From NCBI RefSeq assembly GCF_054482525.1, contig NZ_CM137006.1: a DNA stretch of 64,000 nt; one strand, 5' to 3'. The position numbers and the translations under genes were made by a program. The notes below the pieces were generated by a model. That model was not told the DNA's origin, did not search any database, and worked only from the letters and a program-made list of their open reading frames with translations. This document shows positions 10,708 to 43,412 of this stretch, piece after piece; within the stretch, counting starts at the first letter, position 1; each line of letters opens with the position of its first letter.

Positions 10708-12816
10708 TCAGTACTCTCTCATATCCGGCGTATCCTGCTTTTCATCAGGGGTCTTCGGTGGGGATTTCGAGGCTGCACAGTTCCAGTTAATCAACAGTGA
10801 GTCACCATTAACCTGCTCCTTACCCTGCAAATGAATTTTTGTGCCGTTGAGAAAAATTTGTCCGTCCTTAGTCAGCACCAGCCTTGCCTTACCACAGCAG
10901 AGTTCCAGATGCTCACCGCCGGAGTAAATCGCGGTCTGCCCGGTATCATCCTTTTTCGTTTTACCAACGGTGAAGGTAACGTTATTTCCGACTTTGACGT
11001 CATAACCCAGCCCGACCATCAACGATTTATGCAAACCGATCTGCGAGGACTGCATCAGGGCCACCGAGGTGTTCATAATGCCACCTACCGTCGTCTGATA
11101 CGCCACGCCCACAGTCAGCGCACGAACAAGTCCAATCGTTTCCACCTGAACAGAGCCCACTTTAATGATCTGGTTACTGCCCACCGTCTCTATCTGGTTA
11201 ACACCCACCGTCTGTATCTGATTGTTGGTAACCGCAATCATCTGATTGTTGCCAATGGTCTCAGCATGGTTGTTTATCACATCCGTGGTGCGGTTATTCA
11301 GCACCTCGGTGTTCATGTTCTTCTGCGCGTGGATGTAGACCTGTTCTTTCCCTGTCGCATCGTCAAACTTCAGTTCATTAAACCCGCTGCCCTTATAGGT
11401 TTTCGAACGAATGGTCATCTGCGTCTTTGTTCCCGGCAGGCTGCCGGGGGTGCGGTTTTCCTGGTGGTAGGTACGCCCCATAATAATCGGCTGGTCCGGA
11501 TCGCCGTTGAGGAAGTCCACAATGACTTCCTGACCCACACGCGGTATCGCCAGGTTGCCAAAGCCGGTGCCTGCCCACGCCTGTGCCACACGGATCCAGC
11601 ATGAACTGTCCTGGTTTGACGGGTTATAGCGGTCCCAGTTAAATTTCACCCGCACGCGGCCATGTTCATCACAGAAGATTTCTTCTCCTGCCGGTCCCGT
11701 CACGACGGCGCTCTGCGGGCCGTCCACCAGCGGTTTCAGCAACGGCTGTGGCCGCCATGTTCTGTCTGCCGGTATTACCGCAAAGTGGTTATTCAGCGTG
11801 GTACCTGAACCCCTGCGTCCCGGCACCGCCTGCGGCTGCTCGCCGTGCAGTTCACTTGCCACCACCTGCCATTCCCGGTTCAGGTTCGCCTGCGGATGCC
11901 CCGTCAGCGCAATTCGCCGTCCCGGCCATATCTCCGGCGAACGGCTTGTTCCGCGCGCCACTTCTGCGTTGTTTCGCCAGCCATCCATCTGCCAGCAGGC
12001 AAAGTTCTGCCCGTGGGCACCCTTGAAACGTCCGGGGTAGTCATACACTTCATACTGTGTGCGCTGGTAATCCTGGTGCTGGCCTTCCTGATCAAAACGC
12101 CCTGCCCAGCCGGGTCGTTTAAAGGTGTAGTCTTTGGTCACCACGGAAGATGGGCGGATTTGTGCGCTGTAGAGGAACTGGCTGATGCATAGGGTGCTCA
12201 CCTCGGTACGGGTGTTCGGATTCCAGGGGATCTCAAAGGACTCCGGCAGATAACGCACGGTGTCGCACAGGACCAGGCTCTGGTCGGTACTTTTTTGCGC
12301 GTGCTCCTCATAAAAGAAGATGCCTTCCTCCGCCGCCATCCGGCACAGGAAATCGTAATCGGTTTCGCCGTACTGGACACAAAACTCACGGGAAGGATGC
12401 GGCTCGCTGAACAGCGGACTCCACTCGGTCACCCCGTTTTCTTTCAGGATCGTCGCGAGTATGCTTTCGATGTCCTCATTCTGGAAGATACGGAAGTTCT
12501 GGCGCAGCCCTGTGCGCCACAGCGGTGGGCACACCTTCATGCTGTACAGCATCTGGTTTTTGTCGTTCTCCCCCAGTTCAAACCAGGTCACCACACCTTT
12601 CACCCGGCGCTGTACGTCATCGCCCTGCCATACCGTCAGGTAGGCCATTTTGTCCAGCACCTGCGCAAATTCAAGGGAGAGAAACTGCTGGCTGACCAGA
12701 GAGAGATCGAGGGAAAAGAGCGAAGAGAGTGACTGGTTCAGATGAAAGGAGACCACCGCAAACGCGTCCGGTGGCAGGCCGTCCACTTCCAGCGTGAAAC
12801 GTAATCCGGTTGACAT
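10708..12816 (-). CDS. vgrG: T6SS spike protein VgrG (TssI), 702 aa
   Basis: Translation MSTGLRFTLEVDGLPPDAFAVVSF... with a gp27/gp5-like body and a C-terminal beta-helix repeat region (VGNNQ..., TVG repeats). Located between hcp and rhs. Confidence 0.9.
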   Translation of the reverse strand: MSTGLRFTLEVDGLPPDAFAVVSFHLNQSLSSLFSLDLSLVSQQFLSLEFAQVLDKMAYLTVWQGDDVQRRVKGVVTWFELGENDKNQMLYSMKVCPPLWRTGLRQNFRIFQNEDIESILATILKENGVTEWSPLFSEPHPSREFCVQYGETDYDFLCRMAAEEGIFFYEEHAQKSTDQSLVLCDTVRYLPESFEIPWNPNTRTEVSTLCISQFLYSAQIRPSSVVTKDYTFKRPGWAGRFDQEGQHQDYQRTQYEVYDYPGRFKGAHGQNFACWQMDGWRNNAEVARGTSRSPEIWPGRRIALTGHPQANLNREWQVVASELHGEQPQAVPGRRGSGTTLNNHFAVIPADRTWRPQPLLKPLVDGPQSAVVTGPAGEEIFCDEHGRVRVKFNWDRYNPSNQDSSCWIRVAQAWAGTGFGNLAIPRVGQEVIVDFLNGDPDQPIIMGRTYHQENRTPGSLPGTKTQMTIRSKTYKGSGFNELKFDDATGKEQVYIHAQKNMNTEVLNNRTTDVINNHAETIGNNQMIAVTNNQIQTVGVNQIETVGSNQIIKVGSVQVETIGLVRALTVGVAYQTTVGGIMNTSVALMQSSQIGLHKSLMVGLGYDVKVGNNVTFTVGKTKKDDTGQTAIYSGGEHLELCCGKARLVLTKDGQIFLNGTKIHLQGKEQVNGDSLLINWNCAASKSPPKTPDEKQDTPDMREY

Positions 12817-12980
12817 AGCAACCTCCGGGTTTAAGGAAAAACAGACAGTTCGCTGTTAAAGCGGCTGTAACAGTACAGTGTTACGCTTGCGTTCAGGCAC
12901 GCTACCGCCGAAGTTTCCGGCATCCGCCATCTCCCGTGAACGTAACCCCTTACTGACAACCTTTCTTTTTACGGCGTAAT

Positions 12981-13015
12981 ACAAAAACAGCATCCGGCCT
13001 AATAGCCGGATGCTG
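12981..13015 (-). terminator. Intrinsic terminator/attenuator hairpin between hcp and vgrG
   Basis: 10-bp perfect stem CAGCATCCGG / CCGGATGCTG (12988-12997 and 13006-13015) with an 8-nt loop. On the minus strand it is followed by a T run (plus-strand A run 12983-12987). Lies just 3' of the hcp stop. Confidence 0.5.
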
Positions 13016-13025
13016 TTGGCTTAAC

Positions 13026-13544
13026 TTATGCTTCCAGCGGTGCGCGCCAGTCGTCGGCACCGGAGGTGCCAGACTTGACGTGTTCCCACTCTATTTTGCG
13101 GTAGGCCAGTGAAACTTCGAGCAACTGGGTGAACTCGCGTTTCGCCGGATCCTGGCAATGCGGCATATGCAGTTTCATATCGACAATCGTCGAATCGGTC
13201 AGGCGGGTGGTGAAATAATGCTCCTGTTTGCCTTCCACAGAGGTACGCCACCAGTGAAGTTCAGTGGTTGGCAGCATTTCGCCGGAGGCCAGTGCGTTGT
13301 ACATCAGCGGAACAGCTTTGTTCAGCGCCACGGTAAAAATGAACGGCTTGTGAGCACGCTGACCCGCAGGCTGGCCGGACTGAGGATCGGTCGGGACAGT
13401 AACGTTATGCAGGAATTCCTGCACCAGCATCTCGTCTTCGTGCCCCTGCACATAGATGTTGCCGACAGAATCAGCGGTAAATGCACCTGCAGTAATATTT
13501 CCCTGGGTCTGACCTGTGATGGAGATATAACACGGTGTTGGCAT
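13026..13544 (-). CDS. hcp: T6SS tube protein Hcp (TssD), 172 aa
   Basis: MPTPCYISITGQTQGNITAGAFTADSVGN... is a typical Hcp N-terminus. Strong RBS (AAGGAG) upstream. Confidence 0.9.
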   Translation of the reverse strand: MPTPCYISITGQTQGNITAGAFTADSVGNIYVQGHEDEMLVQEFLHNVTVPTDPQSGQPAGQRAHKPFIFTVALNKAVPLMYNALASGEMLPTTELHWWRTSVEGKQEHYFTTRLTDSTIVDMKLHMPHCQDPAKREFTQLLEVSLAYRKIEWEHVKSGTSGADDWRAPLEA

Positions 13545-14240
13545 TTGTAAACTCCTTGTTAACGTGGTTAATTACTACTTACAATGACCTGCCGTTAATC
13601 CCAGACAGGCAGATGCAGCTCACTTCACGGAACCGCATCATTTTTCAGTATTTTTTACATACAAACCGAGCTAGAATTTACGGTTGTCGTAAAAACTATT
13701 TTTAAAATCATTAAATCTCTTATTCAGCAATAAGTTAATAATATATATCTGGATAACCATACCCAACTATTCAAAGTCCGTATTGCCTCCATAAAATGGC
13801 CAAAGCTGAATCATGAATAAATATTGTATTTATCCTTTCTGAATTATCATTTTGATAATTTTTGAGATATTCCTTAAAAATACCCACTTAATCAATCACA
13901 AAACAAATATATAAACAAGCAATCATCAGATTAGCTTATGTTTAATGAAATTATTGTATAATTCAATAAGTTACATAAAAGCTCTATATTTAAATTATTG
14001 CCATAATACACCTGACGCGAATTGCACAGGTTCACACAATCTATTTAACGCTTGCAGAATACCCCTCTTTACGATCGATAAAAAGTCCTTTTCTTATTTA
14101 TTTTGAAGCGTAGAATGCGGGGTGATGAAGGAGTGGTGATTTTATTTTCACCGCCATTATGGCGGCATTGCCGATATTTTTTTGCGGTACAAATATGCCG
14201 TGTTCATGGCCTGTACGAGATAACATGACGGATCACTTTT
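13545..14240. promoter_or_regulatory. AT-rich divergent control region between hcp-vgrG-rhs (minus) and tssB...vasL (plus)
   Basis: 696 bp with no ORF, very AT-rich compared with the flanking genes. Contains a perfect palindrome AATTATCA-TTT-TGATAATT (13842..13860) and a 7-bp inverted repeat CCGCCAT-T-ATGGCGG (14151..14165) about 75 bp upstream of tssB. Confidence 0.4.
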
Positions 14241-14741
14241 ATGAGCAAAAAATTTGAAGGCAGCGTCGCGCCTCGCGAGCGTATAAATATATCCTATGTC
14301 CCGAAGACGGACGGCCAGACGGCTGAAGTAGAGCTTCCGCTTAACATGCTCGTTGTCGGCGATACCGGAAATACGCAGGAGACATCCCCACTGGATGAAC
14401 GTCAGGCAGTTTCCGTTAACAAGCACAATTTCGGTGCAGTAATGGCTGAAGCAGCCATTGGCCTCAATTTTACCGTCCCCGCCACGCTGAAGGGAAGCAC
14501 AACGGACGATGAACTGAATGTGGCGCTGAATATCAAGTCACTGGATGATTTTTCACCGGACAGCGTGGCCCGGCAGGTTCCGGAAGTGAATAAATTGCTG
14601 GAACTGCGTGAAGCACTGACTGCGCTGAAGGGGCCGATGGGCAACCTTCCGGCATTCCGTACCCAGCTCCAGGCATTGCTGGAAAATGAGGAGTCCCGCG
14701 AGCAGTTGCTTAAAGAAATCGGCCAGGTGAGTGGGAAATAA
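14241..14741 (+). CDS. tssB: T6SS sheath small subunit TssB (VipA), 166 aa
   Basis: MSKKFEGSVAPRERINISYVPKTDGQTAEVELPLNMLVVGD... is a typical TssB. Confidence 0.9.
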   Translation: MSKKFEGSVAPRERINISYVPKTDGQTAEVELPLNMLVVGDTGNTQETSPLDERQAVSVNKHNFGAVMAEAAIGLNFTVPATLKGSTTDDELNVALNIKSLDDFSPDSVARQVPEVNKLLELREALTALKGPMGNLPAFRTQLQALLENEESREQLLKEIGQVSGK

Positions 14742-42641: not shown

Positions 42642-43412
42642 TTATGCTGCTTTATGTGCTTCTACAATGATGATATCACTGGTGAAAGAGCCATCATTCT
42701 GCAAGGCAAAATACGTTTTCACCTCTGTCGATGCGCTCTGTTGGTAAATGCGAATAGCGTCTACTAACGCTTCTGGCGTACGCATTCTCGCGACCCATGA
42801 AGAAAATTCCAGCGGTAACTTATCTGTAATTAAATTATCAACTATCAGATTGGCTTCATTGATTAACGTCAACCACTCACCGCTGGCGTAGTTTCGTACG
42901 TGAGAGGTATCGCGTAATGCTTCTACCGTCTGTAACCAGATGTCGCGCACTGGATGACCCGGAGACATTACGTCCATCACAATCAGCCTACCGCCGGGTT
43001 TCAATACCCGATTCACTTCACGCAGTGCTGCACCAACATCATGCCAGTGATGGGCAGAATAACGGCTGATAACAATATCAAATGCGTTATCGGCAAATGG
43101 CAGACTTTCGACATAACCCTGGCGGGTGGTGATATTTTTCAGTTGCCGGGCTTCGGCAGCTTGTGCCACGACATCCAGCATGTGGGCAGATAAGTCATAC
43201 GCCACCACCGCGCTCACGTTCTGCGCAGCGACAAAGCTGGCATGCCCTGCTCCGCAGCCCATATCAAGTACACTTGCATCAGGATAATCAGCCAGACGCA
43301 CCGCCAGGCGCTGTAAATCCCGTCCGGATGCATGTACGGTACTAGTCAGATATTCGCTAGCTTGAGAGCTAAACTGCTTTTCTACGTGGTCATGGTGGGA
43401 TTGTGTTGTCAT
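42642..43412 (-). CDS. yafE: SAM-dependent methyltransferase YafE, 256 aa
   Basis: Methyltransferase motif VLDMGCGAGH. Position as in K-12. Confidence 0.8.
   Translation of the reverse strand: MTTQSHHDHVEKQFSSQASEYLTSTVHASGRDLQRLAVRLADYPDASVLDMGCGAGHASFVAAQNVSAVVAYDLSAHMLDVVAQAAEARQLKNITTRQGYVESLPFADNAFDIVISRYSAHHWHDVGAALREVNRVLKPGGRLIVMDVMSPGHPVRDIWLQTVEALRDTSHVRNYASGEWLTLINEANLIVDNLITDKLPLEFSSWVARMRTPEALVDAIRIYQQSASTEVKTYFALQNDGSFTSDIIIVEAHKAA

What the first reader, a model, noticed from the sequence alone, without database searches (positions are those of the whole stretch)
12817..13025. Hairpin between hcp and vgrG may set the hcp to vgrG-rhs expression ratio
A perfect 10-bp stem followed by a U run lies immediately 3' of hcp and upstream of vgrG. 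Partial termination here would give high Hcp and lower VgrG/Rhs levels from one promoter.
Basis: inference. Interest (0 to 1): 0.25.

Follow-up and report, generated by a model that had tools for sequence, protein, structure and literature searches.

The report
Terminator hairpin between hcp and vgrG
The hairpin after the E. coli type VI secretion tube gene hcp is a real, conserved transcription terminator that also protects hcp mRNA; it was published for a near-identical strain in 2026, and a conserved RfaH (ops) loading site lies 76 bases downstream of it.

Summary
Genes run on the minus strand. Eight bases after the hcp stop lies a 32-nt hairpin (13017..12986) with 13 perfect pairs plus a G.U (not 10), then UUUGUAUU. 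It is the longest short-loop inverted repeat in the 64 kb window. Across 26 Enterobacteriaceae sequences, 8 of its 14 pairs show compensatory changes.

It is not new. The window is the E. coli T6SS-1 cluster. The 209-nt hcp-vgrG spacer is 97% identical to EHEC O157:H7, where it was described in April 2026 as "h3R" (PMC13141884). Deleting the hairpin there lowered hcp mRNA and protein and raised downstream expression.

Inducing a swapped hcp promoter in EHEC raised vgrG mRNA, but less than hcp mRNA. The hairpin also stabilises hcp mRNA, and whether vgrG has its own promoter is unresolved.

I add one point. A 94-nt block conserved across genera follows the terminator and holds a perfect RfaH ops site, GGCGGTAGCGTG (12909..12898). 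The EHEC paper never mentions RfaH or ops. The unrelated EAEC Sci-1 cluster has the same hcp, terminator, ops order. Leaky read-through followed by RfaH loading is therefore the most likely mechanism. Interest is low to moderate.

The parts
13026..13544 (-). hcp (T6SS tube protein, 172 aa)
   Evidence: ORF list. Pfam PF05638, E = 5e-31. Annotated as an Hcp family effector in identical E. coli genomes.
12986..13017 (-). Terminator hairpin. 5' arm 13017-13004, loop 13003-13000 (ATTA), 3' arm 12999-12986. 13 Watson-Crick pairs plus a G.U.
   Evidence: Covariation: 93.4% of cells paired, 8 of 14 pairs with compensatory changes, 0 of 500 shuffles reach the observed score. Equals h3R region I of EHEC.
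12978..12985 (-). U tract after the stem (UUUGUAUU). With the last two stem U's it reads UUUUUGUAUU.
   Evidence: The T run is nearly invariant across the 26 aligned sequences.
12866..12959 (-). Conserved non-coding core of the spacer, inside the EHEC paper's 'region II'.
   Evidence: An nhmmer profile finds it only 61-80 nt after the hcp stop, in 25 loci from about 12 genera. Alignment A3. It stays next to hcp when other genes are inserted before vgrG.
12898..12909 (-). ops element GGCGGTAGCGTG (RfaH loading and pause site) on the non-template strand
   Evidence: Exact match to the ops12 consensus (consensus from PMC5995543). The GGTAGC part is invariant in 22 sequences. Exact GGCGGTAGNNTG is present at the same relative position in 19 related loci, and about 200 nt further downstream in one more, L028.
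12822..12826 (-). vgrG Shine-Dalgarno GGAGG, 5 nt before the ATG at 12816-12814
   Evidence: Read directly from the sequence.
10708..12816 (-). vgrG (702 aa)
   Evidence: Pfam PF05954, PF04717 and PF22178.
7096..10641 (-). First rhs gene of the downstream vgrG-rhs array
   Evidence: Pfam RHS_repeat, DUF6531 and RHS. Further rhs pieces lie at 1907-5855.

Best explanation
The hairpin is a Rho-independent terminator that acts as a leaky attenuator at the end of hcp. It also forms the 3' end structure that protects hcp mRNA from decay.

Most polymerases starting at the hcp promoter stop at the hairpin. This gives an abundant, stable monocistronic hcp message for the protein needed in hundreds of copies per tube. 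A minority read through. Seventy-six nt further on they meet a perfect ops pause site, where RfaH can load. RfaH would make them resistant to pausing, Rho and H-NS across the long vgrG-rhs array and would help couple translation.

Shown by sequence: the hairpin, the U tract, the covariation and the conserved ops site. Shown by published experiments on the orthologue: termination, hcp mRNA stabilisation and partial read-through. Inferred: that ops in this spacer recruits RfaH, and that read-through rather than an internal promoter feeds it.
For: Structure and rarity of the hairpin.

Selection on the structure. Two compensatory pairs separate the two E. coli spacer types. Across 26 sequences 8 of 14 pairs covary, 93% of cells are paired against 36-59% when the partner is slid, and 0 of 500 shuffles match.

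A hairpin plus T tract follows 71 of 84 distinct hcp orthologue 3' flanks, against 49 of 394 control segments. It is present in all 23 distinct loci that also carry an ops or near-ops motif.

EHEC experiments on a spacer 97% identical, with an identical stem: the junction transcript is absent in wild type, hairpin deletion gives hcp3 mRNA at 6%, Hcp3 at about 50% and more junction RNA, and a gfp-spacer-mCherry reporter behaves the same way. Induction of a swapped hcp3 promoter raises vgrG3 mRNA less than hcp3 mRNA.

ops. There is an exact consensus match in the sense orientation. The RfaH contact bases G4, G5, T6, A7 and G8 are invariant, and variation falls on the degenerate position 10.

No sigma-70-like promoter was found on the sense strand of the spacer.

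Independent parallel. The EAEC Sci-1 cluster has hcp, then a 10-pair hairpin with a T run, then ops1, then clpV. Its Hcp is only 28% identical. There ops1 and rfaH are experimentally required for downstream genes transcribed from the upstream promoter.
Against: The EHEC authors conclude that hcp3 and vgrG3 are separate operons and predict a promoter in the spacer.

In their Ptrc plasmids, deleting the 170 bp that include the ops site increased VgrG3 and mCherry. A purely positive role for ops would not predict this. It may reflect the ops pause without enough RfaH on a multicopy template, but that is my inference.

No RfaH occupancy or rfaH-dependence data exist for this locus. B2-type E. coli carry GGCGGTAGCGTA, which loses G12 of the pause dinucleotide.

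In Yersinia T6SS4, mutating the equivalent hcp4 stem-loop lowered only hcp4 mRNA and left downstream transcripts unchanged. A stabiliser-only role is therefore possible in some systems.
Confidence: 0.6

Rival explanations
1. The hairpin is an essentially complete terminator. hcp and vgrG-rhs are two separate operons, and vgrG is driven by its own regulated promoter inside the spacer. This is the EHEC authors' model.
For: No hcp3-vgrG3 junction RT-PCR product in wild-type EHEC, although both genes gave internal amplicons. BPROM, Sapphire and Virtual Footprint predictions of a promoter and of Fis, NarP, MalT and MelR sites. The spacer core is conserved across genera, as a promoter or operator would be.
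Against: No sigma-70-like site on the sense strand of the spacer at the scan threshold. The spacing between the conserved blocks varies by 0-7 nt through a T-run indel, which fits poorly with a -35/-10 pair spanning them. Their predicted promoter overlaps the 3' end of the small ORF, which puts it downstream of ops. The invariant ops would then lie outside the transcript and have nothing to act on. Inducing the swapped hcp3 promoter did raise vgrG3 mRNA. Replacing h3R with Plac or ParaBAD still gave no detectable VgrG3.
Confidence: 0.25
2. The hairpin is only an mRNA decay barrier. Transcription runs through it, the polycistronic RNA is cleaved, and the stem-loop protects the hcp segment from 3' exonucleases. 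This is the mechanism proposed for hcp4 of Yersinia pseudotuberculosis T6SS4.
For: Hairpin deletion in EHEC drops hcp3 mRNA to 6%. Yersinia precedent: a stem mutant lowers hcp4 mRNA only. Five of 12 short-spacer (66-99 nt) hcp-vgrG loci did not score as terminators, and three of these (L021, L024, L027) keep a strong hairpin without a usable T tract.
Against: The T tract directly after the stem is nearly invariant in the 26-sequence family. A pure decay barrier does not need it. Hairpin deletion increased junction RNA and doubled the downstream reporter. The junction transcript was undetectable in wild type.
Confidence: 0.1
3. The hairpin is a chance palindrome or a REP-type repeated element with no specific role.
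For: The stem shares GCCGGATGC with the E. coli REP consensus (recalled from memory).
Against: There is one copy per genome in 2762 E. coli genomes. The position is fixed 5-19 nt after the hcp stop in the 23 ops-motif loci. The stem shows compensatory evolution. No comparable hairpin appeared in randomised sequence.
Confidence: 0.01

Closest known systems
h3R region I of EHEC O157:H7 EDL933 (Vazquez-Lopez et al., Microbiol Spectr 2026, PMC13141884)
   Same: It is the orthologous element. The locus is the same (tssB / hcp / 209-nt spacer / vgrG). The spacer is 97.1% identical. The 14-pair stem is identical, starts 8 nt after the stop and spans 32 nt. The reported functions are termination and hcp mRNA protection.
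   Different: One loop base differs (ATTA here, ATCA in O157). The paper does not report cross-genus conservation or covariation. It never mentions RfaH or ops, although its 'region II' contains the ops site.
GC-rich stem-loop 3' of hcp4 in Yersinia pseudotuberculosis T6SS4 (PLoS Pathog 2025, PMC12503267)
   Same: A stem-loop directly after the tube gene raises hcp mRNA relative to the rest of the cluster. It was tested by stem mutation.
   Different: In Yersinia it behaved as a 3' protective loop and not as a terminator. The downstream gene is tssE4 rather than vgrG. It was not compared here for sequence homology.
ops1 / RfaH control of the EAEC Sci-1 T6SS (bioRxiv 10.1101/2025.02.08.637259) and RfaH ChIP at T6SS loci of CFT073 (PMC9765446)
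   Same: A consensus GGCGGTAGCGTG lies in the spacer directly after hcp and before the next genes. I find that the Sci-1 spacer also has a hairpin with a T run between hcp and ops. The preprint's Table S4 lists the variant GGCGGTAGCGTA at 042 coordinate 264,452, which is the orthologous hcp-vgrG spacer.
   Different: Sci-1 is a different T6SS lineage (Hcp 28% identical) and the downstream gene is clpV. The preprint does not mention a terminator. It labels the 264,452 site 'hcp/clpV'. RfaH dependence has not been tested for the T6SS-1 spacer.
Intra-operon attenuating terminators and decay terminators (for example the puf and pap intercistronic stem-loops; named from established knowledge and cited in PMC12503267)
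   Same: A stem-loop after the gene for the most abundant subunit sets unequal expression within one transcription unit.
   Different: Here the element is followed by a dedicated antiterminator loading site.

Membership tests
Rho-independent (intrinsic) terminator | G+C-rich stem-loop in the sense transcript | tested here: met
   14 pairs, 8 of them G-C, loop of 4, -26 kcal/mol, z = -5.6
Rho-independent (intrinsic) terminator | U-rich tract immediately 3' of the stem | tested here: met
   UUUUUGUAUU counting the two terminal stem U's. Conserved in 26 sequences. A d'Aubenton-Carafa-type score is +18 to +40, using a formula recalled from memory.
Rho-independent (intrinsic) terminator | Located after a stop codon on the coding strand | tested here: met
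   Starts 8 nt after the hcp TAA. There is no T run on the opposite strand.
Rho-independent (intrinsic) terminator | Structure maintained by compensatory substitutions | tested here: met
   8 of 14 pairs have changes on both sides. 0 of 500 shuffles reach the covariation score.
Rho-independent (intrinsic) terminator | Transcripts actually end there, and with what efficiency | not testable with these tools
   Only indirect published data on the EHEC orthologue exist: RT-PCR, qPCR and reporters. No 3'-end mapping was found.
EHEC h3R region I | Orthology: same flanking genes and near-identical sequence | tested here: met
   97.1% identity over 209 nt to O157:H7 genomes, in tssB/hcp/vgrG context
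mRNA 3' stabilising stem-loop (decay terminator) | Removal lowers the abundance of the upstream message | not testable with these tools
   Published for the orthologue: hcp3 mRNA at 6% and Hcp3 at about 50% after a 31-bp deletion
RfaH ops element | 12-nt consensus GGCGGTAGnnTG on the non-template strand | tested here: met
   GGCGGTAGCGTG at 12909..12898, in the sense orientation. Identical to ops12 of PMC5995543.
RfaH ops element | Conservation of the RfaH contact bases (G4, G5, T6, A7, G8) and the T11-G12 pause dinucleotide | tested here: met
   GGTAGC is invariant in 22 sequences from about 12 genera. T11 is nearly invariant. G12 is A in B2-type E. coli and Pseudocitrobacter.
RfaH ops element | Lies in an untranslated leader or intergenic region upstream of a long, H-NS-silenced, horizontally acquired operon | tested here: met
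   It is intergenic, and the overlapping 45-aa ORF is not conserved. More than 10 kb of vgrG-rhs lies downstream. H-NS silencing is taken from the literature on EHEC.
RfaH ops element | RfaH occupancy and rfaH-dependent expression of downstream genes | not testable with these tools
   No data for this T6SS-1 spacer were found in the searched library.
Any Rfam RNA family | Covariance-model match | tested here: not met
   No match at E <= 1 in 12000-14500 on either strand
REP / repeated extragenic palindrome | Many dispersed copies per genome | tested here: not met
   The 209-nt spacer occurs exactly once per genome in the 2762 E. coli genomes that carry it. This was a blastn of the whole spacer, so dispersed copies of the 32-nt hairpin alone would not have been detected.

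The most novel reading that the evidence does not exclude
The hairpin and the ops site 76 nt downstream are two halves of one conserved switch: an attenuator followed by an RfaH loading site. Tube protein is made by default. Spike and effector genes (vgrG-rhs) are expressed only from the minority of polymerases that read through and are then converted by RfaH.

The same hcp, terminator, ops order occurs in two T6SS lineages whose Hcp proteins are 28% identical. The unexplained repression by 'region II' of EHEC h3R would be the ops pause acting without enough RfaH. The failure to switch on the EHEC T6SS by promoter swapping would be a problem of RfaH or ops licensing. The two published halves have not been connected in the literature I could search.
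Probability: 0.5. Interest if true: 0.5.

Novelty: already known. Interest (0 to 1): 0.3.

Why it matters
A T6SS tube needs hundreds of Hcp subunits for each VgrG trimer. How one locus delivers that ratio is a practical question for anyone trying to activate silent T6SSs. EHEC's system could not be switched on by promoter swapping or by hns deletion.

The hairpin itself is now textbook-type and published. The useful addition is that the 'mystery' inhibitory region downstream of it holds a perfect, deeply conserved RfaH ops site. This gives a directly testable reason why VgrG, PAAR and Rhs stay off, and it suggests simple experiments: RfaH supply and ops point mutants.

Tried and rejected
- **Rfam:** a scan of 12000-14500 at E <= 1 found nothing.
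- **The repeat finder:** with max_distance 12 it missed the hairpin because the arm-to-arm distance is larger. I replaced it with my own scan.
- **Structured RNA in the core:** RNAalifold found only a weak 9-pair local helix with a covariation term of -0.16. The long-range helix from the single-sequence fold (CAGUA/UACUG and GUUACG/CGUAAC) is 87.5% paired but shows no covariation beyond shuffles (151 of 500 shuffles for the score). It is neither supported nor excluded.
- **Sigma-70 promoter in the spacer:** none on the sense strand at 9 of 12 matches. Inspecting the TAnnnT hexamers by eye gave no candidate with a credible -35.
- **Sigma-54 promoter:** TGGC-N-TGC near 12929 has the wrong spacing (by eye).
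- **LexA box:** CTGTACTGTTACAG has a 6-nt rather than an 8-nt spacer (by eye).
- **Small ORF:** the 45-aa ORF annotated in some genomes (12993..12856, starting inside the 3' arm) runs from 5 to 77 codons with frame breaks in relatives, so it is not coding.
- **REP element:** rejected, one copy per genome.
- **Other ops matches:** two further exact matches in the window (27757-27768 and 42984-42995, minus strand) lie inside coding sequence, one of them antisense to clpV. I treated them as chance, since RfaH does not load at intragenic ops-like sites.
- **3'UTR-derived sRNA from hcp:** not pursued. The 3' UTR is only 8 nt plus the hairpin.

Full report
**What is in the sequence**

The finding's coordinates (12817-13025) are exactly the 209-nt spacer between two minus-strand genes. 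Upstream is hcp (13544..13026, 172 aa, Pfam T6SS_HCP, E = 5e-31). Downstream is vgrG (12816..10708, 702 aa, with Phage_GPD, Phage_base_V and Gp5_trimer_C domains). An rhs gene follows at 10641..7096.

On the minus strand, 8 nt after the hcp TAA, lies AACAGCATCCGGCT-ATTA-GGCCGGATGCTGTT (13017..12986), followed by TTTGTATTAC. As RNA it folds at -26 kcal/mol (z = -5.6, 0 of 200 shuffles as stable).

It is the longest perfect inverted repeat with a short loop in the 64 kb window. None of 30 first-order Markov randomisations gave a stem of 12 or more pairs. The T run is on the sense side only.

**Where the window comes from**

The region is 100% identical to many E. coli chromosomes. It is the T6SS-1 cluster next to yafV, ivy and fadE. 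tssB-tssC-...-tssK run divergently from hcp-vgrG-rhs.

The 209-nt spacer occurs once per genome in 2762 of 5426 complete E. coli genomes. In 2183 of them the match covers at least 80% of the spacer, almost always at 95-100% identity. Another 551 carry a variant that is 60-80% identical.

**Evidence of selection on the hairpin**

- **Within E. coli.** The divergent variant (for example MS7163 and N96) has AACAACATCCTGC...GCAGGATGTTGTT. Two base pairs are changed on both sides relative to the window (G-C to A-U and G-C to U-A), and the T run is intact.
- **Across species.** A scan of one genome per species with the Hcp protein returned 80 loci. A hairpin plus T tract of -8 kcal/mol or stronger follows the stop codon in 71 of 84 distinct hcp 3' flanks. 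The same scan hit 49 of 394 random 140-nt segments from the same loci.
- **Covariation.** For the 26 homologous hairpins from Escherichia, Citrobacter, Yokenella, Pseudocitrobacter, Buttiauxella, Atlantibacter, Superficieibacter, Lelliottia, Trabulsiella, Phytobacter and Enterobacter (alignment A2), the 14-pair helix is paired in 93.4% of cells. The figure is 36-59% when the 3' partner is slid by 1-3 columns. Eight pairs carry compensatory double changes, and no shuffle of 500 reaches the observed covariation score.
- **U tract.** It is nearly invariant.

The structure and the T run are both under selection. This points to termination and not merely to a stable stem.

**It is already published**

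A full-text search found Vazquez-Lopez et al. (Microbiol Spectr, April 2026; PMC13141884). In EHEC EDL933 they name the hcp3-vgrG3 spacer 'h3R'. Its region I is a predicted terminator hairpin 'at position +8', 32 bases long with 14 interactions. O157:H7 spacers are 97.1% identical to the window, and the stem is identical. Only one loop base differs.

Their data:
- No hcp3-vgrG3 junction RT-PCR product in wild type.
- Deleting the 31-bp hairpin cut hcp3 mRNA to 6% and Hcp3 to about 50%, and slightly raised junction RNA. Deleting 170 bp (regions I and II) raised junction RNA and VgrG3 further.
- A gfp-h3R-mCherry reporter behaved the same way: GFP halved and mCherry doubled.
- With the hcp3 promoter replaced by ParaBAD, induction raised vgrG3 mRNA, but less than hcp3 mRNA.

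A parallel study in Yersinia pseudotuberculosis T6SS4 mutated the GC-rich stem-loop after hcp4. Only hcp4 mRNA dropped, and the authors interpreted the element as a 3' protective loop (PMC12503267).

The idea that a hairpin after hcp sets the ratio of Hcp to the rest of the system is therefore known. For this very element it has been tested.

Aligning the whole spacer across genera shows that the roughly 95 nt after the terminator (window 12959..12866) are more conserved than the neighbouring vgrG protein. VgrG is only 54-79% identical in the same loci.

A profile of this core matches only 61-80 nt downstream of hcp stops, in 25 loci. It stays attached to hcp even where DUF4225-type genes have been inserted before vgrG, in Lelliottia and Citrobacter werkmanii.

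At its centre is GGCGGTAGCGTG (12909..12898), read in the sense direction. This is an exact match to the 12-nt ops element that recruits the antiterminator RfaH (consensus).

- **Invariant bases.** GGTAGC is invariant in all 22 aligned sequences. It includes G4, G5, A7 and G8, whose substitution abolishes RfaH recruitment, and T6, the flipped-out base RfaH recognises, whose substitution cuts recruitment about 3-fold (PMC5995543).
- **Where variation falls.** The substitutions seen within the 12-mer are at the degenerate position 10 (GGCGGTAGCCTG in Buttiauxella, GGCGGTAGCATG in Phytobacter), at G12 in B2-type E. coli and Pseudocitrobacter, and at G1 in one Citrobacter sequence. One divergent Buttiauxella sequence departs more widely.
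- **Literature.** The EHEC paper contains no occurrence of RfaH, ops, NusG or antitermination. Its 'region II' (roughly nt 40-170 of the spacer) contains the site at nt 117-128.

RfaH control of T6SS is itself known. A 2025 preprint showed that rfaH and a consensus ops1 in the hcp-clpV spacer are needed for EAEC Sci-1. It remarks that the EDL933 cluster 'carries ops elements'. Its Table S4 lists the variant GGCGGTAGCGTA at EAEC 042 coordinate 264,452. I verified that this is the orthologous hcp-vgrG spacer, although the table labels it hcp/clpV. RfaH ChIP in CFT073 also found T6SS loci.

**A recurring layout**

I read the Sci-1 hcp-clpV spacer. It has a 10-pair hairpin (GACGGACAGGGCATCCTGTCCGTC) followed by ATTTTTATTTTTT directly after hcp. 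GGCGGTAGCGTG lies 93 nt further on, 31 nt before clpV.

The two Hcp proteins are only 28% identical, and the spacers are otherwise unrelated. In Sci-1 the genes after ops are essential and are transcribed from the promoter upstream of tssB. Polymerases must therefore pass the hcp hairpin there. This makes leaky termination followed by RfaH loading a credible reading for the present locus as well.

**Most likely mechanism**

Steps shown by sequence:
- A canonical, selected terminator at the end of hcp.
- A conserved ops site downstream, in an untranslated spacer.
- A good Shine-Dalgarno (GGAGG, 12826-12822) before vgrG.

Steps shown by published experiments on the orthologue:
- The hairpin lowers downstream expression and raises upstream expression.
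- Transcription from the hcp promoter reaches vgrG at a reduced level.

Inferred steps:
- The polymerases that read through pause at ops and acquire RfaH.
- RfaH then carries them through more than 10 kb of vgrG-rhs DNA. In EHEC this DNA is H-NS silenced.

I put 0.6 on this combined model and about 0.9 on the terminator function alone.

**Rivals**

1. **Complete termination with an independent vgrG promoter (the EHEC authors' view; 0.25).** Against it: no sigma-70-like site on the sense strand, variable spacing between the conserved blocks, and a predicted promoter that would lie downstream of the invariant ops.
2. **Decay barrier only (0.1).** The Yersinia result and the T-tract-less hairpins in several short-spacer loci speak for it. 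The conserved T tract and the reporter data speak against it.
3. **Chance or a REP-type repeat (0.01).** Excluded.

One awkward fact for my model: deleting region II, which includes ops, increased expression from Ptrc plasmids. I attribute this to the strong ops pause on a multicopy template with limiting RfaH. That is inference, not evidence.

**Verdict**

The hairpin is real, functional and conserved, and it is already known. The added value here is the cross-genus covariation evidence and the observation that the terminator is paired with a perfect RfaH ops site in two T6SS lineages. Interest is 0.3.

Noticed in passing
window 12866-12959 (minus strand): Outside the ops 12-mer, the conserved core contains three GGA motifs: GGGAGAUGG (GGA at 12934-12932), GCGGAUG (12925-12923) and CCGGAAAC (12918-12916). 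The last sits in the loop of a small GCCG/CGGC hairpin. This resembles paired CsrA sites, and the EHEC authors speculated about CsrA without locating sites. The function of the non-ops part of the core is unknown.
   Followed up: partly
L087 24173-24340 (E. coli 042 Sci-1, hcp-clpV spacer): It has the same order as in the window: hcp stop, 10-pair hairpin with a T run (24181-24204), then consensus ops (24298-24309), then clpV. The preprint that characterised ops1 does not mention the hairpin.
   Followed up: yes
window 12856-12993 (minus strand): A 45-aa ORF that starts at an ATG inside the 3' arm of the hairpin is annotated as 'hypothetical protein' (WP_001297813.1; EDL933_0238 in the paper) in some genomes. 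In relatives it is 5-77 codons long with frame breaks, so it is almost certainly not a gene.
   Followed up: yes
window 27757-27768 and 42984-42995 (minus strand): Two more exact matches to GGCGGTAGNNTG lie inside coding sequence. One is antisense within clpV/tssH (25016-27913, plus strand) and one is inside ORF 42642-43412. They are probably chance. Published ChIP shows RfaH ignores intragenic ops-like sites.
   Followed up: partly
L019, L021, L024-L027, L029, L035 (Lelliottia, Enterobacter, Rahnella, Citrobacter, Buttiauxella): A second class of closely related hcp-vgrG loci (Hcp 88-94% identical) has a short spacer of 68-83 nt, no ops and no conserved core. Some (for example Rahnella L024 and L027) have a strong hairpin with no T tract. 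This suggests a stabiliser-only variant of the junction.
   Followed up: partly
L020 3919-5977, L023 3833-5435, L032 3727-5307: In Lelliottia and Citrobacter werkmanii, two to three genes have been inserted between the terminator-ops leader and vgrG. In the two Lelliottia loci these include a DUF4225 protein with a small downstream ORF, which looks like an effector/immunity pair. The leader therefore belongs with the 3' side of hcp and not with vgrG.
   Followed up: partly
L005 1509-1540 (E. coli UTAK-6): A natural variant carries an uncompensated G-to-T change in the 5' arm. A U.C mismatch replaces a G-C pair, and the fold weakens from -25.5 to -19.3 kcal/mol. It could serve as a natural weaker-terminator allele.
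   Followed up: no
window 1907-10641 (minus strand): The array downstream of vgrG looks degraded. The first rhs ORF (1181 aa) stops within the RHS core motif. A second rhs is split into three ORFs (4281-5855, 3668-4387 and 1907-3616), which suggests frameshifts or recombination between rhs copies.
   Followed up: no
window 13545-14240: The 696-bp divergent region between hcp and tssB is very A+T-rich. It is the H-NS-bound 't6sP' region of the EHEC paper. No strong sigma-70 consensus for hcp was evident in the scan.
   Followed up: no
Supplementary Table S4 of bioRxiv 10.1101/2025.02.08.637259: The same table lists the variant ops GGCGGTAGCGTA next to a PAAR gene (EC042_RS08380, coordinate 1,652,782). 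Orphan spike or effector islands may also carry ops-like leaders.
   Followed up: no
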